Shown: in pieces, positions 6,974-32,647 of the stretch
Layout of the letters: the number at the start of each line of letters is the position of its first letter
How positions within the stretch are numbered: position 1 is the stretch's first letter
Assembly (NCBI GenBank): GCA_043719125.1
Contig: JAYSUL010000037.1
Location: forward strand, 1-32,784
From: Candidatus Saccharimonadota bacterium
GTDB taxonomy: Bacteria; Patescibacteriota; Saccharimonadia; Saccharimonadales; JAGQMS01
Length of the DNA stretch: 32,784 nucleotides
Reading direction: 5' to 3'
Notes under the pieces: generated by a model
What the model saw: only the letters and a program-made list of their open reading frames with translations
What the model was told of the DNA's origin: nothing
The model's database searches: none
Program-made: the position numbers and the translations under genes

Positions 6974-9292
6974 ATGGCAACACTCAAAGACTTCAGAGAC
7001 GAACGACTACGCAAATTAGAAGAGTTAAAAAAACTTGGCATTAATCCATACCCAGCCGTGGCCCATCGGACACATACGACTGATATGATAGTGTCTCAGT
7101 TTGCTAGTCTAGAGGGTCAAACAGTTACGATTCCCGGCCGCATAATGTCTATCCGTAAATTCGGAAAGCTCGCCTTTATCGTGATTAAAGATGGTTGTGG
7201 CATAGTTCAATTATTTATCAAAGAAGGTAATGCTTCCGCAGAACCAAATCGCTCAAATTCTGAGCTTCTGATGCCCGGCGAGATAGGTCTACTTGATAGC
7301 GGAGACTTTGTTGAAGCGACAGGTACTGTTATCAAAACTCAGACGGGCGAAATATCGGTTGATGTTTCTAGTCTTCGTATTCTCACTAAAGCGCTACGTC
7401 CTATGCCATCACCCCAGGACGGTTTTACTGATAAAGAGCAACGTCAACGTAGACGCTATATTGATACAAATGTAAATGAAGATGTTAAGCAGAGGTATAT
7501 ACGTAGGAGCAAATTTTGGCAGGCATGTAGGGAGTTCCTGATTCAGGACGATTTCATCGAAATCAACATACCTGTTCTGGAGCACACTACGGGCGGTGCA
7601 GATGCAAACCCGTTTGTCACTCATATGGATGCGCTTGATCAGGACTTTTATCTACGTATTTCACACGAACTTCCACTTAAAAGACTTATAGGCGGTGGTT
7701 ATGAGAAAGTATTTGATATTGGCCCGAGGTTCAGAAACGAGAACTATTCTGATGAGCATTTACCTGAGCACATCGCAATGGAGTGGTATTGGGCTTATGC
7801 TGACTGGAACATGGGCATGGAGCAAGTCGAGAAAATGTTTAGTTTTGTGATGGAGCGCACTTTTGGTAAGACCTCGTTTAATGTGCGAGGTTTTGACATA
7901 GATTTTTCTAAGCCATGGGTAAAACTAGACTACGCCCAGGTTATCAAAGACAATTATGATCTTGATGTGTTCAGCTGCTCAATAAAAGATGTCCAGGCTA
8001 AACTTGCTGAACACAAACTTGAGGTTGAGAAAACAGACAATATCCCCCGTGGTATCGACAAGTTATGGAAAAAGGTACGAGCAACCACCGGTGGTCCTGC
8101 GTGGCTCATCAATACACCGCTATTCATCAGCCCCCTAGCTAAATCCAATGACGATGATCCTAACACAGTCCAAAGGTTCCAGGCTGTAATTGCGGGTAGT
8201 GAGCTTGTTAACGGTTATTCAGAGCTAAATGATCCCCTTGATCAGCTCAACAGGTTTCAGGAGCAAGAAGAGCTCCGTGCCGGTGGCGATGCAGAGGCCC
8301 AGATGCTTGATATTGATTATGTCGAGATGCTCGAGTATGGCATGCCTCCTACATGTGGTTTTGGTATCTCAGAGCGTGTATTTTGGTTTTTTGAGGGGGT
8401 TACTGCTCGTGAAGGAGTACCGTTTCCGCAGCTTCGCACAGAAGTTGATGAGGTAACTAGGGGTATTTATCCGCAGATTGCTTTTTCACCTCACGATACA
8501 AACCAAAAGAAAATCGAGTTACCAAAAGGTGATCTTCCGGTTTCAGCTGTCGAGCAGGGTACTAAAAAGTTATATCTCGATGACTATTCACTTCTGGAAT
8601 GTGATTCGGTAGTTGTTTCGACAGAGGATCTGGGCGAGGGATCGTTACGTCTTATCCTAGACCAAACGTGTTTTTACCCAGGCGGTGGTGGGCAAAATCA
8701 TGATCTTGGAGTGATCTCATGGGATGATGGGTCTTTACAGATCGAAAGCATTACAAAAGACAAAGAAGGTGTTGTGTATCATGACGGAATCCTGGAGGGA
8801 GTGATTTGCGCCGATGGATCCTCGGTCCGTAGCTTCGTTGATTCAGATCGGAGATTACTAAATTCTCGCCTGCATAGCGCTGGGCACTTGATTGACTACG
8901 CAGTTCTAAAAGCTGGAAAAAGCTGGAAAAGCGGGAAAGGTGCGCACTATCCAGATATGAGCTTTGTGGAGTATTCTGGTGATTTCTCTGACCAGGACCC
9001 TGTCGACTTACCGCCTAAAATTGAATCTATACTTCACGACTATATAAATAATGGTGGAGGTGTCTCGGTTGCACGCGTGCCGAGTGAAAAAGCTAGCGAG
9101 TTTTCTGAGTATATCCCAGAATATGTGATTAAAAGCTACCAAAATGTACACATCGCGTCATACCCTGATAATTTCAACATTTGCTGTGGCGGAACACATG
9201 TATCTGATGTATCGCAAATCGGTAAAGTTGTTATCACAAAGATCAAGAAAAAAGACGGTCAGATCCGCGTAAGCTACGAACTAGGTTCCTGA
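6974..9292 (+). CDS. lysS: Class II lysyl-tRNA synthetase fused to a C-terminal AlaX-type (tRNA_SAD) editing domain
   Basis: Residues 1 to about 495 carry an OB anticodon domain and a class II core (RRRYIDTNVN, GGADANPF, LRISHELPLKRL, FRNENYSDEHLPEH, GFGISERV). From about residue 537 the sequence is AlaX-like: LYLDDY, LDQTCFYPGGGGQ, HSAGH (nt 8873-8887) and CGGTH (nt 9185-9199). The ORF is uninterrupted. Confidence 0.9.
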   Translation: MATLKDFRDERLRKLEELKKLGINPYPAVAHRTHTTDMIVSQFASLEGQTVTIPGRIMSIRKFGKLAFIVIKDGCGIVQLFIKEGNASAEPNRSNSELLMPGEIGLLDSGDFVEATGTVIKTQTGEISVDVSSLRILTKALRPMPSPQDGFTDKEQRQRRRYIDTNVNEDVKQRYIRRSKFWQACREFLIQDDFIEINIPVLEHTTGGADANPFVTHMDALDQDFYLRISHELPLKRLIGGGYEKVFDIGPRFRNENYSDEHLPEHIAMEWYWAYADWNMGMEQVEKMFSFVMERTFGKTSFNVRGFDIDFSKPWVKLDYAQVIKDNYDLDVFSCSIKDVQAKLAEHKLEVEKTDNIPRGIDKLWKKVRATTGGPAWLINTPLFISPLAKSNDDDPNTVQRFQAVIAGSELVNGYSELNDPLDQLNRFQEQEELRAGGDAEAQMLDIDYVEMLEYGMPPTCGFGISERVFWFFEGVTAREGVPFPQLRTEVDEVTRGIYPQIAFSPHDTNQKKIELPKGDLPVSAVEQGTKKLYLDDYSLLECDSVVVSTEDLGEGSLRLILDQTCFYPGGGGQNHDLGVISWDDGSLQIESITKDKEGVVYHDGILEGVICADGSSVRSFVDSDRRLLNSRLHSAGHLIDYAVLKAGKSWKSGKGAHYPDMSFVEYSGDFSDQDPVDLPPKIESILHDYINNGGGVSVARVPSEKASEFSEYIPEYVIKSYQNVHIASYPDNFNICCGGTHVSDVSQIGKVVITKIKKKDGQIRVSYELGS

Positions 9293-23001: not shown

Positions 23002-25665
23002 ATGAAAAAGTTTGCCAGCAAAAAGACACAAAAAGCCGATCATAAGGACTTTGAACTTAAAGCGTCTAACCGTTCTGTTTCAAAGTTTTTTAAAGTCATA
23101 CTAGGCGATAATCAAAAAGCCAACTTGAGACGCTACTACAAAAAAGTAGCTGAAATTAATAAACTCGAAGATGATTATAAAGAGAAGTCCGATGCTGAGC
23201 TTCGTGCTATGACTGACGATTTTAGAAAGCAACTTGAGACAAAGTCTACGGATACAATCTTGCCACACGCATTTGCAGTGGTGCGCGAAGCAGCAAGGCG
23301 AGTGCTAGGCCAGCGACATTTTGATGTGCAGCTTATTGGCGGCATGGTGCTCCACGAAGGTAAGGTCGCTGAAATGAAAACCGGTGAAGGTAAAACAATT
23401 GTTGCGACGCTACCTCTTTATCTCAACGCACTAACTGGTAAGGGTGCGCACCTTGTAACTGTCAATGATTATCTCGTCCGAATTGGAGCTGGCTGGATGG
23501 GTCAGATATATGACTTCTTGGGTCTATCGGTTGGTGTTATCATGCCAGACGCATCATATATCTACGATAAAAATCATAACGATGAATCACACGATGATGA
23601 GCGACTTAGCCATCTGCGCCCATGCAGTCGGCAAGAGGCGTACCGTGCAGATATCACCTATGGTACTAACAACGAGTTTGGTTTTGACTACCTGCGTGAC
23701 AATATGGTTAGAGAAGACGCTCAGCTACGTCAGCGTGACCTACACTTTGCTATTGTCGATGAGGTGGACTCGATCTTGATTGACGAGGCCAGGACGCCGC
23801 TTATTATTTCCGCACCATCTGTAGCAAGCGCCGCATCATATCAGCAGTTCTCGAGAATTGCGATGCAGCTAAAACCCGAACACTACGAAAAAGACGAAAA
23901 GCGGCGTGCAGTGCACCTCACCGAAATAGGTGTAGAAAAGGTTGAGAAGCTCCTCGGTATCGATAATCTGTATGGTCCAGATAATATCAGGATGATTTAT
24001 CACCTCGATCAGGCACTTAGGGCTCAGACACTGTTTACGCGTGATAAAGACTACGTTGTTGCGAATGATGGCGAGGTTATCATTGTTGACGAATTCACGG
24101 GGCGTCTCCTAAAGGGCAGGCGATATAACGAAGGGCTACACCAGGCCATTGAAGCCAAAGAAGGCGTAGAAGTCCAAGAAGAGTCGATGACACTGGCAAC
24201 TATATCGTTTCAGAATCTTTTCCGTTTGTATGAAAAACTGTCAGGTATGACTGGAACTGCTACCACAGAGGCCGAAGAGTTTCACCAGATCTATAAACTG
24301 GATGTAGTCGAGATCCCGACTAATCAAAAAATGATCAGGAAAGATCTAGCAGACCGTATATATAAAACTGAAGCAGCAAAATTTAAAGCAGTTACTGCAC
24401 TCGTCAAAGAGCTGCACAGTAAGGGTCAGCCAGTCCTAATTGGTACATCCAGTATCGAACGAAACGAAGTGCTCGGTGCCATGTTTAAGAAGTCGGGCAT
24501 CCCACACCAGATGCTTAACGCCAAAAATAACGAACGTGAAGCAAAGATCGTTATGGAAGCTGGGCAAAAAGGTGCCGTTACTATCGCTACCAACATTGCC
24601 GGACGTGGTACGGACATTATGCTGTCCGACGAGACCAGGAAGCTGGGTGGTCTGTATGTAATTGGTAGTGAGCGGAATGAGTCGCGCCGTGTTGACAACC
24701 AATTCCGTGGCCGTTCAGGTCGTCAGGGCGATCCAGGAACAACTCAGTTTTACGTATCGTGCGAAGATAGTTTGATGAGGATTTTTGCTGGTGACCGCAT
24801 CGCAAAAGTTATGGACAGGCTCAAAGTTGACGAAGACACGCCACTTGAAAATCGTTTTGTTAGTAAGAGCTTAGAGGGAGCCCAAAAGAAAGTTGAGGGG
24901 TTCAACTACGACTCACGTAAGAATGTCGTGCAGTACGACGACGTTATGAACCGCCATCGTCGCGCTGTCTATGCAATGCGCAAAAAGCTACTTAACGATA
25001 CTGATGTATCAGGTAAGATCAAAGAGTTCATCGACGAAGAGACCAAACTGCTTGCCTCACTTCCCGGTATAGACGCCGAGTATGAGAAAACTATTACTGA
25101 AGTATTCCCATTTGATGATGCAACATTAGATCGGCTATTTGATGCGGAGGCAGATCGATTTGAGCAGGTTCTTAAGCAAGAATCGATGGAGCTATATGAA
25201 AGCAAGGAGATAGTCTTCACCAATAATGTTATCCGTGAAGTTGAGCGCGATATATATTTCCAGGTCCTCGACGATTTATGGATGAGACATCTTGAAAATA
25301 TGGATCATTTACGCGAGGGAATTCACTGGTACAGTGTAGGGCAACGTGATCCGCTTGTAGAGTATCGCCGTCAAGCACAGTTACTATTCGAATCAATGCA
25401 GCACAATCTTCGTCATGATACGCTGAGGGCTCTGTTTCACGCGACACCTATCGATCCAGATGACTTATTAGCGCCAACAGAGACAGAGCTTACCCGTGCC
25501 GCAAGAAGCTCAGTTGATAACGCCAGCAAGATTATCGAAGGAGAGATTGTACACGAAGAAGACTTCGCCAAGAAGAAGCCAGCACAAAAGGTTAAAGCTA
25601 AGACAACAATTAAAAAAGCCCGTAAACAAGAGCGCAAGCGTCGAGCAAAAGGCAAAAAGCGGTAG
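23002..25665 (+). CDS. secA: Preprotein translocase ATPase SecA
   Basis: Motifs are MKTGEGKT, VTVNDYL, DEVDSILIDEARTPLIIS and TNIAGRGTDI. I chose the ATG at 23002, which has a GAGGGG Shine-Dalgarno 11 nt upstream, over the GTG at 22960. Confidence 0.95.
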   Translation: MKKFASKKTQKADHKDFELKASNRSVSKFFKVILGDNQKANLRRYYKKVAEINKLEDDYKEKSDAELRAMTDDFRKQLETKSTDTILPHAFAVVREAARRVLGQRHFDVQLIGGMVLHEGKVAEMKTGEGKTIVATLPLYLNALTGKGAHLVTVNDYLVRIGAGWMGQIYDFLGLSVGVIMPDASYIYDKNHNDESHDDERLSHLRPCSRQEAYRADITYGTNNEFGFDYLRDNMVREDAQLRQRDLHFAIVDEVDSILIDEARTPLIISAPSVASAASYQQFSRIAMQLKPEHYEKDEKRRAVHLTEIGVEKVEKLLGIDNLYGPDNIRMIYHLDQALRAQTLFTRDKDYVVANDGEVIIVDEFTGRLLKGRRYNEGLHQAIEAKEGVEVQEESMTLATISFQNLFRLYEKLSGMTGTATTEAEEFHQIYKLDVVEIPTNQKMIRKDLADRIYKTEAAKFKAVTALVKELHSKGQPVLIGTSSIERNEVLGAMFKKSGIPHQMLNAKNNEREAKIVMEAGQKGAVTIATNIAGRGTDIMLSDETRKLGGLYVIGSERNESRRVDNQFRGRSGRQGDPGTTQFYVSCEDSLMRIFAGDRIAKVMDRLKVDEDTPLENRFVSKSLEGAQKKVEGFNYDSRKNVVQYDDVMNRHRRAVYAMRKKLLNDTDVSGKIKEFIDEETKLLASLPGIDAEYEKTITEVFPFDDATLDRLFDAEADRFEQVLKQESMELYESKEIVFTNNVIREVERDIYFQVLDDLWMRHLENMDHLREGIHWYSVGQRDPLVEYRRQAQLLFESMQHNLRHDTLRALFHATPIDPDDLLAPTETELTRAARSSVDNASKIIEGEIVHEEDFAKKKPAQKVKAKTTIKKARKQERKRRAKGKKR

Positions 25666-28126: not shown

Positions 28127-28810
28127 ATGATTTTACTCGATAGGGTTACAAAGAGTTATAAAAAACGTGGGGTAGCACTCCAGAATGTCTCTTTGCACGT
28201 TGAGCCAAAGGAATTTGTTATTATTGTAGGCCAGTCAGGTGCAGGCAAATCAACTCTATTGAAACTTTTGACCCGCGAAGAAAAGCCGGATAGTGGCAAA
28301 ATTATTGTTGGAGGCATCGATTATGAATCTCTACGTGACAAAGAAGTACCATATTTGCGCCGCAAGATAGGTGTTGTTTTCCAAGATTTTAAGCTTTTAT
28401 CAAACAAAAACGTATTCGAAAATGTAGCCTTTGCACTAGAGATAATCGGTCAGTCGAACAAAGAAATTAAGCACACCGTACCCAGAGTTCTAGAAATTGT
28501 AGGGCTTGAAGGCAAGGCAAATGCTATGCCGTGGGAGCTGTCTGGTGGAGAAAAGCAACGAGTAGCGATAGCTCGCGCCATCGTACGTCAGCCAAAGATA
28601 CTTATCGCTGATGAGCCAACTGGTAACCTTGATCCCAAACATGCCTGGGATGTTATTCGTGTACTGCAAAAGATCAATAAATACGGCACGACAGTACTAC
28701 TTACTACCCATAATCAGGAAATCGTAAACAAGCTTAAACGGCGAGTCGTTACCATCAAAGACGGCACGATTGTAAGTGATAAAGCCAATGCAGGATATAG
28801 GGAAATGTAG
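28127..28810 (+). CDS. ftsE: Cell division ABC ATPase FtsE
   Basis: Walker A is GQSGAGKST, the signature is LSGGEKQR, and Walker B is LIADEPTGNLD. It is followed directly by ftsX. Confidence 0.92.
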   Translation: MILLDRVTKSYKKRGVALQNVSLHVEPKEFVIIVGQSGAGKSTLLKLLTREEKPDSGKIIVGGIDYESLRDKEVPYLRRKIGVVFQDFKLLSNKNVFENVAFALEIIGQSNKEIKHTVPRVLEIVGLEGKANAMPWELSGGEKQRVAIARAIVRQPKILIADEPTGNLDPKHAWDVIRVLQKINKYGTTVLLTTHNQEIVNKLKRRVVTIKDGTIVSDKANAGYREM

Positions 28811-29749
28811 ATGTATAGAAAACTTATTACATTCAGAAGGTTATTCGGAGTCGGTTGCAAGAACTTTGTGCGTAATGCGTGGCTGAGTATTGCGGCAACA
28901 GCTGTGATGATAGTGACGATTGCGATAGTCTTAACTGCGATAGTACTAAACGTTACTGCCAGAAATGCCATTTCGGAGTTATCAAAAAATCTAAAGATTT
29001 CAGTTTACCTCAAAGACGATGCCTCTAGCGAAGATCAGCAAACCCTCAAAAACGCGCTTGTGAGTAACCAATATGTAAGTACAGTAGAGTTTGTTTCAAG
29101 AGAAAAGGCAAAGGCAAACTTTACCGATAGTTTCCAGAACGATCAAAAACTTCTCGAGGGCCTTGCGCTCGTCGGTGGAGAAAGCCTACCGGCATCATAT
29201 GAAATAAGCGTAAACGATATCGAGAAGATTTCTGAAGTAGGTGAAATAGCAAAAGAACAAAAGTATGCGGGTGTCGTGGAAGAGGTTTCTCTGGGTAAAA
29301 CAAATGTCAAAAGCACGATTGATAGGGCAGCTGCGGCTCAGAAATTTGTTATCAGGGCTAGTATAATTGCATCTGCGGTATTTGCTACGGTATCCATTTT
29401 GATCATATTCAACACTATACGGATGGCCATATTTACCAGGAGCGAAGAGATACGCACCATGAAACTCATTGGTGCGACTCCCAATTACATCAGGGGGCCA
29501 TTTATCATTGAGACTACTCTATACGGTGTGATAGCTGGACTAGCTGCCAATGCGGTCGTCTATGCCGGAATATTATCTTTCGGGAGTAAGCTGTCATCGC
29601 AAGCAGAGTTTGCTGAGACGTATGAGTACTTTACGTCGACGGGTACGATGTTTAGTATGCTTGCGGGCGGTATTTTCGCGGGAATACTCGTTGGCATGCT
29701 GTCGAGCATACTCGCAATGGAAAAATACCTCCGTCTTAAAAAGTGGTAA
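28811..29749 (+). CDS. ftsX: Cell division permease-like protein FtsX
   Basis: It has an N-terminal TM helix, an extracytoplasmic domain (KISVYLKDD...VSTVEFVSREKA) and three C-terminal TM helices with EEIRTMKLIGATPNYIRGPF. Confidence 0.88.
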   Translation: MYRKLITFRRLFGVGCKNFVRNAWLSIAATAVMIVTIAIVLTAIVLNVTARNAISELSKNLKISVYLKDDASSEDQQTLKNALVSNQYVSTVEFVSREKAKANFTDSFQNDQKLLEGLALVGGESLPASYEISVNDIEKISEVGEIAKEQKYAGVVEEVSLGKTNVKSTIDRAAAAQKFVIRASIIASAVFATVSILIIFNTIRMAIFTRSEEIRTMKLIGATPNYIRGPFIIETTLYGVIAGLAANAVVYAGILSFGSKLSSQAEFAETYEYFTSTGTMFSMLAGGIFAGILVGMLSSILAMEKYLRLKKW

Positions 29750-29811
29750 TTTCCGTAGCTTTAACCTGTTGAAACTATATAACTTTTGTACACTTTAAGC
29801 CGTAAGCACTA

Positions 29812-29817
29812 TATACT
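29812..29817 (+). promoter_or_regulatory. -10 element (TATACT) 6 nt upstream of the M23 gene ATG; putative leaderless promoter
   Basis: ACTATATACTATAAGCATG has no Shine-Dalgarno. It shares an 11-mer and the same geometry with the serS upstream region. Confidence 0.35.
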
Positions 29818-29823
29818 ATAAGC

Positions 29824-30963
29824 ATGTCTGTAAGGCGTCTTTTTACTGTTGCATCACTGCTTGTTTTGTTCATGGGCTTTAGTTTGTATCCAAATAGCGC
29901 CAGCAGAGGTGTCCGCGCAGAAGAAGACCCTACGAAAGCGCTTCAGGCCCTCGGTAACAAGACTACAGCTCTTCAGCAGGAAATAGACACCAATTATGAA
30001 AAGATTAAAGAGCTGGCCACGACTGAACGTGATCTAAAAGCAAAGCTTGAGCAGATCAACCTCGAAATAGTTCAGGCAAATAAAGAAATCGAGATAACAG
30101 GCCTCAAGATAGACGAGCTTGACGGTACGCTTACAAAAACACAGGAGGAGCTCAATAACCAAAAGGCGCTACTAAGGGCTAATATTAGGGCATTGTATAA
30201 ATCTGGAGGTGCATCTGACCTTGAGCTTTTAGTCTCGAGCGATAGCTTTTCTCAATACGTCAATGACCAGTCGTATCTCCAGACGGTAAAAGACGGCATA
30301 CAGGTTTCTGCGATAGCAGTTGTTAAAACTAAGCAGGATTTAGAGCTTCAAAGGTTCACGCAAAAGGCACTATATAAGCGTCAAGATGCGCAAAGAGTTA
30401 CGCTTGTAACGAGACAGGGTGATCTTAATAAACTACTTGCAGATACAAAAGGGGAGCAGTCAAAATATCTAGAGATTATGAAGTCACTTGATAAAGAGTA
30501 CGGTCAAGCTGACGCGCTGATGGAGGCATTTTTCAAAGATCAAAAATTCACATCGCTCGGCAAAGTAAAAGCTGGCGAGCAGATTGCATACGTTGGGTCT
30601 AGCGGCTTGTCTACGGGTCCTCATACACATTTCACGGTATTTATGAATGGTAAATGGACTAATCCTATAGAATCAGAAGGTAAGCTAGTCAACGGATTCC
30701 TGTGGCCTCTACCTAATAGTGTGTGGGCTGACATTACTCAGCCATTTGGATGTACAGATTTCGATCTAGAGCCCGTATCTGCCTCATGTCCGGGTGGGCA
30801 TTTTCATAATGGTCTTGATATCGCAGGCTGGTACGGTGATCCAGTTATCGCAGCGGCTGATGGAGACATTATATTCAGGGGTTTTAAGCCAAGCTGGGGA
30901 AATGTTGTGATCATTGACCATGGAAATGGTGTATTTACCCACTATCCCCACTTATTGAACTAA
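29824..30963 (+). CDS. EnvC/PcsB-like coiled-coil protein with an M23 (LytM) peptidase domain in apparently permuted order
   Basis: It has a signal or anchor sequence and a long coiled coil (RANIRALYKSGG...LELL). Next comes VKAGEQIAYVGSSGLSTGPHTHF (HxH at nt 30622-30630). After that come WPLP...ITQPFG...HNGLDIA (HxxxD at nt 30805-30819) and GNVVIIDHGNGVFTHYPHL, then the stop. Confidence 0.85.
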   Translation: MSVRRLFTVASLLVLFMGFSLYPNSASRGVRAEEDPTKALQALGNKTTALQQEIDTNYEKIKELATTERDLKAKLEQINLEIVQANKEIEITGLKIDELDGTLTKTQEELNNQKALLRANIRALYKSGGASDLELLVSSDSFSQYVNDQSYLQTVKDGIQVSAIAVVKTKQDLELQRFTQKALYKRQDAQRVTLVTRQGDLNKLLADTKGEQSKYLEIMKSLDKEYGQADALMEAFFKDQKFTSLGKVKAGEQIAYVGSSGLSTGPHTHFTVFMNGKWTNPIESEGKLVNGFLWPLPNSVWADITQPFGCTDFDLEPVSASCPGGHFHNGLDIAGWYGDPVIAAADGDIIFRGFKPSWGNVVIIDHGNGVFTHYPHLLN

Positions 30964-30978
30964 CGTTCAGTAAGTGTA

Positions 30979-31001
30979 AGCGTTTAACGAATAGCGTATA
31001 G
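30979..31001. repeat. Left arm of an imperfect inverted repeat flanking the four-helix-bundle gene
   Basis: AGCGTTTAACGAATAGCGTATAG matches the reverse complement of 31367-31389. About 20 positions match, with 2 single-nt indels and 2 mismatches. Confidence 0.8.
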
Positions 31002-31009
31002 TGATTAGC

Positions 31010-31363
31010 ATGAAAACCGCAAGCTTTAAGGATCTTATAGTCTGGCAAAAATCCAGGATGTTGGTGAAAATGGTTTATGGGGTATGCGCTACATTACCCA
31101 AGTCGGAAGAATATGGGATTTGTTCTCAGGCAAGAAGATCATCAGTAAGCATCCCATCTAATATTGCGGAGGGTTACCGGCGTAGAAACCTTAAAGAATA
31201 TTTACAGTTTCTTGGCATAGCCGCCGGATCGTCTGCTGAGCTTGAGACTCAGTTAATACTGATAGAGGATATATATAATGTTTCAACTAAAATAGAACTT
31301 GATCTACTAGATGAGGTTCAGAAGATGCTCATGTCGATGCAAATAAAAATGCGACAGGACTAA
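31010..31363 (+). CDS. Four-helix-bundle protein (23S rRNA intervening-sequence protein family, Avd-like)
   Basis: FKDLIVWQKS...LPKSEEYGICSQARRSSVSIPSNIAEGYRR...EYLQFLGIAAGSSAELETQL is characteristic of the family. I chose the ATG at 31010 over the GTG at 31001 by comparison with typical N-termini. Confidence 0.85.
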   Translation: MKTASFKDLIVWQKSRMLVKMVYGVCATLPKSEEYGICSQARRSSVSIPSNIAEGYRRRNLKEYLQFLGIAAGSSAELETQLILIEDIYNVSTKIELDLLDEVQKMLMSMQIKMRQD

Positions 31364-31366
31364 ACG

Positions 31367-31389
31367 CTATTTGCTATTCGCTTAACGCT
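31367..31389. repeat. Right arm of the imperfect inverted repeat flanking the four-helix-bundle gene
   Basis: CTATTTGCTATTCGCTTAACGCT starts 4 nt after the stop codon. It can pair with 30979-31001, enclosing the whole ORF. Confidence 0.8.
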
Positions 31390-31392
31390 ATC

Positions 31393-31401
31393 TGGTATAA
31401 T
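31393..31401 (+). promoter_or_regulatory. Extended -10 element (TGGTATAAT) 7 nt upstream of the ctpA ATG; putative leaderless promoter
   Basis: It is a perfect TGnTATAAT that starts 4 nt after the right inverted-repeat arm. Confidence 0.4.
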
Positions 31402-31408
31402 CAGGTAA

Positions 31409-32647
31409 ATGGAGAAAACAAAGAAAACTCATAAAACGCGGCTTTTTTATGCACTTAGTGCTGTGATTATATTTGCTGGGGGAGTAACACTTGGGCTACT
31501 CTCAAAGGCCAACTTTAGTACTTCATCAGAAAACTCTCAGAGTTTGTTTAGTAGTATATTTGGTGGGCTGACTGACAGAAACGGTTCGGTATCCAACAAT
31601 AACGATAATCTCGACTATGACTCTGTTGAAGAAGCATACGATACGCTCGTAGCAAATTACGATGGAGAGTTAGATAAAACAAAACTCATAGATGGTCTCA
31701 AAAAAGGTTTAGCAGAAGCGACAGGTGATCCATATACGGAATTTTTCCCGGCCGAGGAAACAAAGGAGTTTGCAGAGCAGATTAGCGGGTCATTTACAGG
31801 TATTGGTGCAGAGCTGGGCAAACAAGACAACGCGATTGTGATTATTTCCCCAATCAAAGGTTACCCAGCAGAAAAAGCCGGTGTGCAAGCAAAGGACATT
31901 ATCCTCAAAATCAACGACGAGGACGCACTTTCGCTTTCTATCTCAGAAGCCGTCAAGAAGATTCGAGGGGAAGCCGGCACAACAGTCAAACTCAATTTAC
32001 TTCGAGGCAGTGAGCAAATAGAGCTTACAATCACCCGCACAGAGATCAAAATACCAAGTGTTGAGTATGAAGTGCTTGATGGGGGAGTATGCAATATACG
32101 TATTTCAAGGTTCTCTGACGACACCGATCAGCTTGTTAAGGAGGCCGCAAAAGTCTGTAAAGAAAAGTCTGCGACATCAGTACTATTGGATCTCCGGAAT
32201 GATCCAGGTGGTTATCTCGACCAGGCAATCCGTGTCTCAAGTCACTGGGTAGATCAGGGTAAAACAGTCGTCACGGAAAAACGAGCAGGCAAAGTAATCA
32301 AGACACACTCAGCTGGCGTTGGACAGGAATTCAAAGGCATGAAAACAGTTGTATTAATTAACTCAGGCAGTGCTAGTGCAAGTGAGATTGTGGCTGGAGC
32401 GCTCAAAGATTATGGACTTGCTACGTTGGTTGGTGAAAAATCATACGGCAAGGGCAGTGTGCAGGAAATTGACCAGCTCGGAGGTGGCACATCTCTCAAA
32501 ATCACAATCGCCCGATGGTTTACCCCTAAAGACAAAAACATAGATCAGGAAGGCATAGAGCCAGACCACAAAGTAGAGATCACAGTAGACCAAGCCAAAG
32601 CAGGTGAAGATCCACAAAAAGCCAAAGCCCTCGAACTCCTAAAGTAA
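31409..32647 (+). CDS. ctpA: Carboxy-terminal processing (S41) peptidase with a PDZ domain
   Basis: It has an N-terminal TM anchor and a PDZ segment (GYPAEKAGVQAKDIILKIND). The S41 core has LDLRNDPGG, a GSASASEI catalytic Ser region and a YGKGSVQ Lys region. Confidence 0.9.
   Translation: MEKTKKTHKTRLFYALSAVIIFAGGVTLGLLSKANFSTSSENSQSLFSSIFGGLTDRNGSVSNNNDNLDYDSVEEAYDTLVANYDGELDKTKLIDGLKKGLAEATGDPYTEFFPAEETKEFAEQISGSFTGIGAELGKQDNAIVIISPIKGYPAEKAGVQAKDIILKINDEDALSLSISEAVKKIRGEAGTTVKLNLLRGSEQIELTITRTEIKIPSVEYEVLDGGVCNIRISRFSDDTDQLVKEAAKVCKEKSATSVLLDLRNDPGGYLDQAIRVSSHWVDQGKTVVTEKRAGKVIKTHSAGVGQEFKGMKTVVLINSGSASASEIVAGALKDYGLATLVGEKSYGKGSVQEIDQLGGGTSLKITIARWFTPKDKNIDQEGIEPDHKVEITVDQAKAGEDPQKAKALELLK

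What the first reader, a model, noticed from the sequence alone, without database searches (positions are those of the whole stretch)
30559..30963. Apparent circular permutation of the M23/LytM catalytic domain in the FtsEX-associated EnvC-like protein
Canonical M23 peptidases (lysostaphin, LytM, the EnvC family) follow a fixed order. It runs PxxxxITSxFG, then HxxxD, then GNxVxIxHxxGxxTxYxHL, then VxxGxxVxxGxxIGxxGxTGxSTGPHLHF. Here the last segment (GKVKAGEQIAYVGSSGLSTGPHTHFTVFMNGKWTNP, with HxH at residues 267-269) comes first, directly after the coiled coil. The normally N-terminal part follows it (WPLP..ITQPFG..HNGLDIA, with HxxxD at residues 328-332, then GNVVIIDHGNGVFTHYPHLLN). The ORF stops exactly where a normal domain would continue into the VxxG...HxH segment. 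All metal-ligand motifs are intact, so this looks like a functional permuted domain rather than a truncated pseudogene. A permuted LytM domain attached to the FtsX-binding coiled coil would change how FtsEX conformational changes reach the active site.
Basis: partly seen in the sequence, partly recalled or inferred. Interest (0 to 1): 0.65.

Follow-up and report, generated by a model that had tools for sequence, protein, structure and literature searches.

The report
Circularly permuted M23 cell-wall peptidase
The cell-division wall-cutting enzyme encoded next to ftsEX in this small-genome (Saccharibacteria-like) bacterium has the two halves of its zinc-peptidase domain in swapped order; this rearrangement is real, is conserved in at least 170 related protein clusters, and was not found described in the literature searched.

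Summary
ORF 29824-30963 (379 aa) has a signal or anchor helix, a roughly 200-residue antiparallel coiled coil, and an M23 domain whose halves are swapped. Residues 247-284 match canonical profile positions 99-136 (HxH half). Residues 290-377 match positions 12-89 (HxxxD half). Rejoining them in silico gives one collinear, complete domain.

It is not an artefact or pseudogene. Two independent assemblies are identical across it, and a roughly 94%-identical strain is collinear with mostly third-codon changes. In total, 178 of 267 related proteins examined share the same order and breakpoint. H267, D332 and H376 are invariant, and H269 and H328 are at least 90% conserved.

The old termini are joined by a median of 4 residues, and the new C-terminus lies a median of 2 residues after the catalytic "xHL". 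AlphaFold2 predicts one compact domain (pLDDT 92.5, pTM 0.87). A non-sequential superposition on LytM could not be run.

The prfB-ftsE-ftsX-gene-S41 protease synteny matches canonical-order orthologues in other phyla. Best reading: an active FtsEX-controlled septal endopeptidase with a permuted M23 domain, a new variant of a known kind. Whether the permutation changes regulation is untested.

The parts
28127..28810 (+). ftsE, the ABC ATPase of the FtsEX pair
   Evidence: PF00005 ABC_tran, 4.2e-37. It sits directly upstream of ftsX, and the same order is seen in L081, L082, L086 and L088.
28811..29749 (+). ftsX, the permease-like partner with an extracellular domain
   Evidence: PF18075 FtsX_ECD at 4.7e-17 and PF02687 FtsX at 1.6e-16.
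29824..30963 (+). Whole gene: a 379-aa secreted or anchored coiled-coil protein with a circularly permuted M23 domain
   Evidence: ORF. PF01551 scores 79 bits in 2 stretches. There are 44 close homologues of the same length and order.
29824..29922 (+). N-terminal hydrophobic helix (signal peptide or membrane anchor) followed by a low-confidence linker, residues 1-33
   Evidence: The sequence is MSVRRLFTVASLLVLFMGFSLYPNSASRGVRA. AlphaFold2 places a helix at residues 2-20, and pLDDT is below 50 for residues 22-32.
29929..30207 (+). Coiled-coil helix 1, residues 36-128
   Evidence: AlphaFold2 helix H36-128, pLDDT up to 97. NCBIfam EnvC NF008644 aligns residues 48-225. The top Foldseek hit is 8tzl_E, EnvC in the V. 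cholerae FtsEX-EnvC complex.
30238..30537 (+). Coiled-coil helix 2, residues 139-238, running back along helix 1 and leading straight into the M23 domain
   Evidence: AlphaFold2 helix H139-238. pLDDT drops to 75-82 over residues 221-240. There is a weak PF24568 CC_PcsB match at residues 105-154.
30553..30675 (+). The canonical C-terminal half of M23 (residues 244-284), here placed first. It carries the Gly-rich loop and H267xH269.
   Evidence: Canonical profile positions 99-136 match residues 247-284. Chain 3slu_A residues 301-340 match residues 244-283. H267 is invariant and H269 is at least 90% conserved in 120 diverse members.
30676..30690 (+). Short linker (residues 285-289) joining the old C-terminus to the old N-terminus
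   Evidence: This is the gap between profile position 136 and profile position 12. The family median is 4 residues, range 0-28, n=164. Model pLDDT here is 92-93.
30691..30954 (+). The canonical N-terminal half of M23 (residues 290-377), here placed last. It carries WPLP..ITQPFG, the Cys310-Cys322 loop, H328xxxD332, H366 and catalytic H376.
   Evidence: Canonical profile positions 12-89 match residues 290-377. Pfam positions 2-52 match residues 327-377. D332 and H376 are invariant, and H328 and H366 are at least 90% conserved.
30955..30963 (+). New C-terminus: L378, N379 and the stop codon, two residues after the ..HL motif
   Evidence: Sequence. The family median tail after ..HL is 2 residues. 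Orthologues without the downstream cassette end at the same place.
31409..32647 (+). S41 C-terminal processing protease (CtpA/CtpB-like, with a PDZ domain), the conserved downstream neighbour
   Evidence: PF03572 at 3.7e-46, plus PDZ and CtpB_N-like. It sits directly after the permuted gene in L081, L082 and L086, and after the canonical orthologue in L088.

Best explanation
The gene encodes the extracytoplasmic partner of the FtsEX division ABC complex in a Saccharibacteria-like bacterium of the Candidate Phyla Radiation (CPR). It is a secreted or anchored protein whose long antiparallel coiled coil docks on the FtsX extracellular domain, and whose catalytic module is a complete, probably active M23 (LytM/lysostaphin-type) zinc endopeptidase in circularly permuted order.

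The domain is cut in the short loop after the catalytic 'YxH-L' strand. The former C-terminal half (Gly-rich loop plus HxH) is fused directly to the end of coiled-coil helix 2. The former termini are joined by about 5 residues. The former N-terminal half (HxxxD ... catalytic His) now ends the protein.

By homology with LytM, Zn would be bound by H328, D332 and H269, with H267 and H376 acting in catalysis. ATP-driven movement of FtsEX, passed through the coiled coil, would switch on cleavage of septal peptidoglycan cross-links.

Shown here: the swapped order, the completeness of the domain, its conservation, the synteny, and a confident single-domain model. Inferred: FtsX binding, Zn binding, enzymatic activity, and origin by tandem duplication followed by loss of the outer half-domains.
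For: - Swapped-order profile matches.
- The re-ordered sequence gives one collinear hit to a canonical M23 profile, positions 12-135 at 131.6 bits. Nothing is missing or duplicated.
- 178 of 267 relatives examined have the same order and breakpoint, and none is intermediate.
- In 120 members at 23-70% identity, G261, H267, D332, G347 and H376 are invariant, and H269, H328 and H366 are at least 90% conserved.
- The linker between the old termini has a median of 4 residues, and the tail after the catalytic His motif a median of 2.
- AlphaFold2 on the domain alone gives pLDDT 92.5 and pTM 0.87. The full-length model has a coiled-coil hairpin at 36-128 and 139-238, and its best PDB match is EnvC in the FtsEX-EnvC complex, 8tzl_E.
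- FtsE and an FtsX with FtsX_ECD lie directly upstream.
- The order prfB-ftsE-ftsX-gene-S41 recurs in L081, L082 and L086. A canonical-order CC-M23 sits in the same operon in an Actinobacteria metagenome-assembled genome.
- Assemblies from two runs are 100% identical across the gene. A roughly 94%-identical strain is collinear, and 15 of the 16 differences listed between 29970 and 30340 fall at third codon positions.
Against: - No sequence-order-independent structural superposition could be run. Foldseek on the domain model returns M23 entries (4rnz, 2gu1, 9gy1) only at E of 0.5 or worse, with partial, high-rmsd alignments. The 3D equivalence and the Zn-site geometry are therefore not demonstrated.
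- There is no biochemical evidence. E. coli EnvC, the best-studied relative, is a non-catalytic activator (PMC7668044).
- A neighbour-joining tree of the domain does not cleanly separate permuted from canonical sequences: 11 of 75 canonical fall on the permuted side.
- No duplication intermediate was found.
Confidence: 0.85

Rival explanations
1. The permutation is real but functionally neutral. It is a topological accident (tandem duplication plus trimming) fixed early in a CPR lineage, and the enzyme is regulated by FtsEX exactly as its canonical-order orthologues are.
For: The coiled-coil region has almost the same length in permuted members (median 240 residues) and canonical CC-M23 proteins (median 252). 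The operon is identical in canonical-order Actinobacteria. Domain identity is about the same between permuted and canonical sequences (0.38) as within the permuted set (0.40).
Against: The attachment point of the coiled coil moves from the old N-terminus to the strand next to the catalytic-His strand. The new C-terminus is held to 1-4 residues after that His motif in three quarters of members. This suggests constraint, but it does not prove a functional difference.
Confidence: 0.45
2. The protein is a non-catalytic activator like E. coli EnvC. Its M23 groove would bind and de-repress a separate amidase rather than cut peptidoglycan itself.
For: JGI annotates relatives as 'septal ring factor EnvC (AmiA/AmiB activator)'. 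The fold is EnvC-like and sits in an ftsEX context.
Against: EnvC's LytM domain lacks the catalytic residues (PMC7668044). Here H267, H269, H328, D332 and H376 are invariant or at least 90% conserved across the family. The NCBIfam EnvC equivalog scores 42.7 bits against a cutoff of 270. No amidase gene lies in the window.
Confidence: 0.1
3. The feature is an artefact or decay product. Possible causes are a mis-assembly, a pseudogene left by rearrangement, or truncation of a normal gene by the four-helix-bundle cassette inserted just downstream.
For: The window comes from a metagenome. A cassette flanked by inverted repeats starts 16 nt after the stop codon.
Against: The sequence is identical in two independent runs, and collinear in a related strain that lacks the cassette. 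Loci without the cassette (L081, L082, L086, L001) end at the same residue motif. 178 homologues share the order, and the substitution pattern indicates purifying selection.
Confidence: 0.02
4. The two half-domains do not fold within one chain but pair between two chains. In this domain-swapped dimer, the C-half of one protomer would complete the N-half of another, tying activity to oligomerisation on FtsEX.
For: PcsB, another FtsEX partner, is reported to crystallise as an intertwined dimer (my own knowledge). The 3D assembly of this domain was not verified.
Against: The linker joining the old termini is very short (median 4 residues) and confidently modelled. The monomer model is compact with pTM 0.87. 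EnvC binds FtsX as a monomer at 1:2 stoichiometry (PMC7668044).
Confidence: 0.05

Closest known systems
EnvC of E. coli and V. cholerae (FtsEX-EnvC-AmiA/B system; PDB 6TPI, 8TZL)
   Same: Both have an N-terminal export signal, a long antiparallel coiled-coil hairpin and an M23/LytM-type domain at the C-terminal end. 8tzl_E is the best structural match, and there is a partial NCBIfam EnvC match. This gene sits directly after ftsE-ftsX.
   Different: EnvC's LytM domain is in canonical order and has lost its catalytic residues. It activates amidases and is autoinhibited by a 50-residue 'restraining arm' between the coiled coil and LytM (PMC7668044). Here the domain is permuted, all catalytic residues are kept, and helix 2 runs into the domain with no separate arm predicted.
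Canonical-order coiled-coil M23 'peptidoglycan DD-metalloendopeptidase family' proteins encoded after ftsEX in Actinobacteria and Firmicutes (for example P0047, MBE0446748.1)
   Same: Same operon, ftsE-ftsX-CC-M23-S41 protease. Similar length and coiled-coil size. Catalytic motifs are intact. These are the probable orthologues.
   Different: The domain order is N-half then C-half, as in all 43 PDB M23 sequences that the family profile matched. Most carry a recognisable PF24568 CC_PcsB domain.
LytM and lysostaphin catalytic domains (MEROPS M23B; PDB 2B0P, 4QPB)
   Same: Same motifs, including near-identical local sequence (KVKAGEQIAYVGSSGLSTGPHTHF here). The profile matches at 1e-13. The inferred Zn ligands and catalytic histidines are the same.
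   Different: They are canonical in order, have no coiled coil, and are not FtsEX partners.
PcsB (S. pneumoniae), CwlO (B. subtilis) and RipC (M. tuberculosis): FtsEX-controlled direct hydrolases
   Same: The working logic is the same: a coiled coil bound by FtsX plus an active hydrolase domain. Some proteins that hit the same coiled-coil profile carry no M23 domain, and one relative is annotated CHAP (P0363, P0366, P0369, P0416).
   Different: Their catalytic domains are CHAP or NlpC/P60 cysteine peptidases, not M23.
Circularly permuted NlpC/P60 families (YaeF/poxvirus G6R, LRAT-like)
   Same: These are a precedent for a natural circular permutation of a peptidoglycan-peptidase catalytic domain (PMC6403190).
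   Different: They belong to an unrelated fold and have a different catalytic mechanism. They are not linked to FtsEX.

Membership tests
Peptidase family M23 (Pfam PF01551; LytM/lysostaphin type) | Whole-protein score above Pfam's gathering threshold | tested here: met
   79 bits against a cutoff of 28.7, E 3.1e-22.
Peptidase family M23 (Pfam PF01551; LytM/lysostaphin type) | HxxxD and HxH metal-binding and catalytic motifs, plus the third catalytic His (xHL) | tested here: met
   H328xxxD332, H267xH269 and H376 are all present. They are invariant or at least 90% conserved in 120 family members.
Peptidase family M23 (Pfam PF01551; LytM/lysostaphin type) | Collinear order: HxxxD half, then xHL, then HxH half | tested here: not met
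   The profile matches in two stretches in reversed order.
Peptidase family M23 (Pfam PF01551; LytM/lysostaphin type) | M23 three-dimensional fold with a single Zn site | tested here: inconclusive
   The AlphaFold2 model is compact (pLDDT 92.5, pTM 0.87). Foldseek aligns sequentially and gives only weak partial M23 hits.
Circular permutant of a known domain | The two segments match the parent domain in swapped order and together cover it once, with no loss or duplication | tested here: met
   The native sequence matches positions 99-136 and then 12-89. The re-ordered sequence gives a single hit at positions 12-135 of 145.
Circular permutant of a known domain | The old termini are joined by a short linker, and the new termini lie in a former loop | tested here: met
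   The linker has a median of 4 residues and the tail after ..HL a median of 2 (n=164). The cut falls in the 5-8-residue loop between 'YAHL' and 'G.V..G' of 3slu.
Circular permutant of a known domain | The arrangement is inherited and under selection, not a one-off rearrangement | tested here: met
   178 proteins share the order. Strain differences are mostly at third codon positions.
EnvC family (murein hydrolase activator, NCBIfam NF008644) | Equivalog score above the curated cutoff | tested here: not met
   42.7 bits against a cutoff of 270.
EnvC family (murein hydrolase activator, NCBIfam NF008644) | Antiparallel coiled-coil hairpin preceding the LytM-type domain | tested here: met
   AlphaFold2 helices at 36-128 and 139-238. 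Foldseek hits 8tzl_E at 9.8e-06 and 6tpi_A at 1.6e-03.
EnvC family (murein hydrolase activator, NCBIfam NF008644) | Degenerate (non-catalytic) LytM active site used to activate amidases | tested here: not met
   All catalytic residues are retained. EnvC lacks them (PMC7668044).
EnvC family (murein hydrolase activator, NCBIfam NF008644) | Physical binding to the FtsX extracellular domain | not testable with these tools
   Only gene adjacency to an FtsX with FtsX_ECD is shown, together with conserved synteny.
PcsB-type FtsEX partner (Pfam PF24568 CC_PcsB) | CC_PcsB coiled-coil domain above the gathering threshold | tested here: not met
   17.4 bits against a cutoff of 27, E 0.004. A few relatives (P0003, P0045) carry a precomputed PF24568 hit.

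The most novel reading that the evidence does not exclude
The permutation rewires regulation. The coiled coil is fused directly to the strand next to the catalytic-His strand, and that strand is left as a free C-terminal tail of 2-3 residues. FtsEX mechanotransmission would then open or distort the active site itself, rather than displacing an EnvC-type restraining arm. The exposed C-terminal tail beside the active site would also be the recognition handle for the co-operonic S41 C-terminal processing protease. One cut would thus couple activation and turnover of the septal hydrolase.
Probability: 0.2. Interest if true: 0.75.

Novelty: new variant of a known kind. Interest (0 to 1): 0.58.

Why it matters
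M23/LytM domains are among the most studied peptidoglycan hydrolase and regulator modules. They include lysostaphin, LytM, EnvC, NlpD, ShyA and DipM. All 43 solved M23 structures matched by the family profile have the canonical order.

A natural, ancient and widespread circular permutant, sitting in the FtsEX-partner position, gives three things:
- a test of how much chain connectivity matters for this fold;
- a natural experiment on how FtsEX movements are coupled to a catalytic domain, because the coiled coil now enters the domain next to the active-site strands;
- a marker trait for part of the Candidate Phyla Radiation, whose cell-division machinery is almost unstudied.

There is also a practical point. 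Domain-based annotation sees only a 'weak' or partial M23 hit and labels these proteins EnvC amidase activators, which is probably wrong for this family.

Tried and rejected
- **Foldseek, full-length model against PDB.** The result is dominated by coiled coils. It is useful only for the EnvC and FtsEX-complex hits.
- **Foldseek, domain-only model.** No significant hit. This is expected for a permuted chain with a sequential aligner, so it is uninformative rather than negative. I could not obtain model coordinates for a permutation-aware superposition.
- **Organism names.** Two cluster look-ups and a third homologue search with a 120-sequence profile gave no named permuted protein. Lineage therefore rests on two points: SecA is about 70% identical to a 'Candidatus Saccharibacteria bacterium' SecA, and the L001 record is titled Berkelbacteria.
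- **Neighbour-joining tree of re-ordered domains.** 163 of 164 permuted sequences fall on one side, but 11 of 75 canonical sequences fall there too. This is too poorly resolved to prove a single origin.
- **Search for duplication intermediates** (C-half plus a full domain, or a full domain plus an N-half, behind the coiled coil). None among 267 proteins. The apparent 'FN' and 'CNN' classes were threshold artefacts.
- **Truncation by the downstream four-helix-bundle cassette.** Rejected, because loci and a strain without the cassette end identically.
- **Stop-codon read-through into a missing C-half.** Rejected, because the next gene follows within 20-45 nt in the cassette-free loci and no M23 sequence lies downstream.
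- **Rfam and tRNA scans of the window.** Nothing found.
- **Literature.** No paper in the library describes a permuted M23 or LytM domain.

Full report
**1. What is in the sequence**

The ORF at 29824..30963 (+) encodes 379 aa. The finding's interval, 30559-30963, runs from codon 246 to the stop codon.

Four profile searches show the swapped order.
- Pfam PF01551 scores 79 bits (cutoff 28.7) in two stretches. The best stretch, residues 327-377, matches only profile positions 2-52 of 96.
- NCBIfam MepM positions 371-408 of 439 match residues 246-283.
- Against the solved Neisseria M23 protein 3slu_A, residues 300-377 align to chain 224-295, and residues 244-283 align to chain 301-340.
- I built an HMM from 65 canonical-order domains recovered in the homologue search. 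The native sequence hits positions 99-136 (E 2.7e-18) and then positions 12-89 (E 3.2e-23). When the two pieces are re-ordered in silico, they give one collinear hit over positions 12-135 at 131.6 bits.

The two pieces therefore make exactly one M23 domain, with nothing lost or duplicated. The cut lies in the short loop that follows the 'YxHL' strand.

**2. It is not an artefact or a pseudogene**

Contigs assembled from two separate sediment-metagenome runs are 100% identical across 29700-31500. A third run holds a roughly 94%-identical strain that is collinear over 29711-30914. Of the 16 differences listed between 29970 and 30340, 15 fall at third codon positions.

The first homologue search returned 44 protein clusters at 28-83% identity and 360-424 aa. 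All have HxH before HxGxD, and nearly all end at YPHLL[NQDE].

A profile search of 1.84 billion representatives found 2125 proteins at E below 1e-30. I classified the best 150 together with the earlier hits using the canonical HMM. Of 267 proteins, 178 are permuted, 76 are canonical, and none is intermediate.

In an alignment of 120 permuted members at 23-70% identity, G261, H267, D332, G347 and H376 are invariant. H269, H328 and H366 are at least 90% conserved.

Across 164 full-length members:
- the linker joining the old C-end to the old N-start has a median of 4 residues;
- the tail after the catalytic '..HL' has a median of 2 residues;
- the median protein length is 383 residues.

**3. Structure**

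With the 38-sequence family alignment, AlphaFold2 gives mean pLDDT 85.5 for the whole protein. It predicts helices at 2-20, 36-128 and 139-238, followed by a beta-rich domain with pLDDT of 81-96. The domain alone (residues 241-379, 20-sequence alignment) gives pLDDT 92.5 and pTM 0.87, with all five models above 92. This indicates one compact domain.

The best PDB match of the full-length model is EnvC in the V. cholerae FtsE/FtsX/EnvC complex (8tzl_E, E 9.8e-06). 6tpi_A, EnvC bound to FtsX, is also listed.

The domain-only Foldseek search returns M23 entries (4rnz, 2gu1, 9gy1) only at non-significant E-values and with partial alignments. Foldseek aligns in sequence order and I cannot access model coordinates. 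Assembly of the Zn site is inferred from the compact model, the very short linker and the conservation of all ligands.

All 43 PDB sequences hit by the family profile are in canonical order.

**4. Context**

The upstream genes are prfB, ftsE (ABC_tran) and ftsX (FtsX_ECD plus FtsX). Downstream lies an S41 C-terminal processing protease with a PDZ domain.

The order prfB-ftsE-ftsX-permuted M23-S41 recurs in three loci:
- L081, on an 881-kb contig;
- L082, whose protein is 47% identical;
- L086, a distant representative.

The ftsE-ftsX-permuted M23 order also recurs in L084, whose protein is 27% identical. In L001, a Candidatus Berkelbacteria chromosome, the permuted gene starts right after the preceding gene, which I read as ftsX.

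A canonical-order CC_PcsB plus M23 protein from an Actinobacteria metagenome-assembled genome sits in the same ftsE-ftsX-X-S41 operon. The permuted proteins are therefore positional orthologues of ordinary FtsEX-partner M23 hydrolases.

The rest of the window is a housekeeping block, including rpsB, tsf, frr, uppS, rseP, aminoacyl-tRNA synthetases and secA. Its SecA is about 70% identical to a SecA labelled Candidatus Saccharibacteria bacterium, and the closest relatives lie on contigs of 0.9-1.0 Mb. I infer a Saccharibacteria-like CPR organism.

**5. How it most likely works**

Shown:
- the export or anchor helix;
- the coiled-coil hairpin;
- one complete M23 domain in permuted order, with every catalytic residue conserved;
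- conserved linkage to ftsEX.

Inferred from established knowledge of EnvC, PcsB, RipC and CwlO (PMC7668044, and my own knowledge):
- the coiled coil binds the FtsX extracellular domain;
- ATP-driven FtsEX movement switches the hydrolase on at the septum.

Inferred from LytM (my own knowledge): its Zn ligands are H210, D214 and H293, and its catalytic histidines are H260 and H291. Here, H328, D332 and H269 would bind Zn, and H267 and H376 would catalyse.

Because the ligands are kept, I read the protein as an active endopeptidase, not as an EnvC-type amidase activator. The likely origin is the classical route: tandem duplication followed by loss of the outer half-domains. A tandem of the domain does contain the canonical order across the junction, and tandem M23 proteins exist (P0070, P0364). 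No intermediate was found.

**6. What the permutation might change (hypothesis)**

In EnvC, the coiled coil is followed by a 50-residue restraining arm that blocks the LytM groove, and then by the N-terminus of the domain. Here, helix 2 runs to residue 238 and enters the domain 8 residues later, at the strand that leads to the Gly-rich loop and HxH. The strand bearing catalytic H376, which is normally tied covalently to that strand, ends free after 2-3 residues.

Movement of the coiled coil could therefore act directly on the active-site strands. The free C-terminal tail could be what the co-operonic S41 protease recognises. Nothing here tests this.

The coiled-coil length is nearly the same as in canonical orthologues (240 against 252 residues). 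A functionally neutral permutation is therefore a serious rival.

**7. Novelty**

Searches of the paper library for circular permutation, or 'permuted', together with M23, LytM or FtsEX found no description of such a domain. The only permuted peptidoglycan peptidases mentioned are NlpC/P60 families. Source annotations call these proteins EnvC or M23 without comment.

I rate this a new variant of a known kind. It is real, widespread in at least two CPR lineages, and of moderate-to-good interest to people working on cell-wall hydrolases and FtsEX.

Noticed in passing
window 30979-31389 (ORF 31001-31363, +): A 120-aa four-helix-bundle / 23S rRNA intervening-sequence protein gene (PF05635 at 4.8e-32; TIGR02436) lies between the M23 gene and the S41 protease gene. 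It is flanked by a 30-nt imperfect inverted repeat (30979-31008 and 31360-31389) that closes a long stem in the predicted RNA fold (z -3.35). The whole block is absent from a roughly 94%-identical strain and from syntenic loci L081, L082 and L086. It therefore looks like a recently inserted IVS-like cassette in an intergenic spacer rather than in rRNA.
   Followed up: partly
window 30751-30789 (residues C310-C322 of the M23 protein): The loop between ITQPFG and HxxxD is enlarged, with a median of 18 residues against 12 in canonical M23. It carries two conserved cysteines in 85 of 149 permuted members where the loop could be located, against 7 of 64 canonical sequences. This is probably a disulfide-stapled substrate-groove loop that could alter specificity.
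   Followed up: partly
P0363, P0366, P0369, P0377, P0388, P0416 (relatives, not in the window): Proteins that match the same coiled-coil profile strongly carry a different C-terminal domain. They show no M23 hit, and P0416 is annotated PF05257 CHAP. This suggests that catalytic modules have been exchanged on a conserved FtsX-binding coiled coil.
   Followed up: no
window 6974-9292 (+): A 772-aa class II aminoacyl-tRNA synthetase (tRNA-synt_2 plus the OB anticodon domain) has an extra C-terminal piece that matches the end of alanyl-tRNA synthetase (PF01411 positions 485-552). This is an unusual fusion.
   Followed up: no
window 25496-25665: The longest ORF of the M16 peptidase gene (GTG start at 25496) overlaps the 3' end of secA by 170 nt. 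The orthologue in L081 is 433 aa and starts right after secA, so the true start here is probably further downstream.
   Followed up: no
L081 5526-5948: In the 881-kb relative, an extra 140-aa ORF with no Pfam hit sits between ftsX and the permuted M23 gene. It is absent from the window and from L082 and L086.
   Followed up: no
L047 4755-6017: A genome labelled uncultured Candidatus Saccharibacteria carries a canonical-order coiled-coil M23 protein of 420 aa, with an insertion after HxH. It lies between gltX and a femAB-like gene and is not next to ftsEX. Similar canonical proteins (P0375, P0395, P0396, P0398) score E of about 1e-52 to 1e-56 against the permuted-family profile. CPR bacteria therefore have both topologies.
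   Followed up: partly
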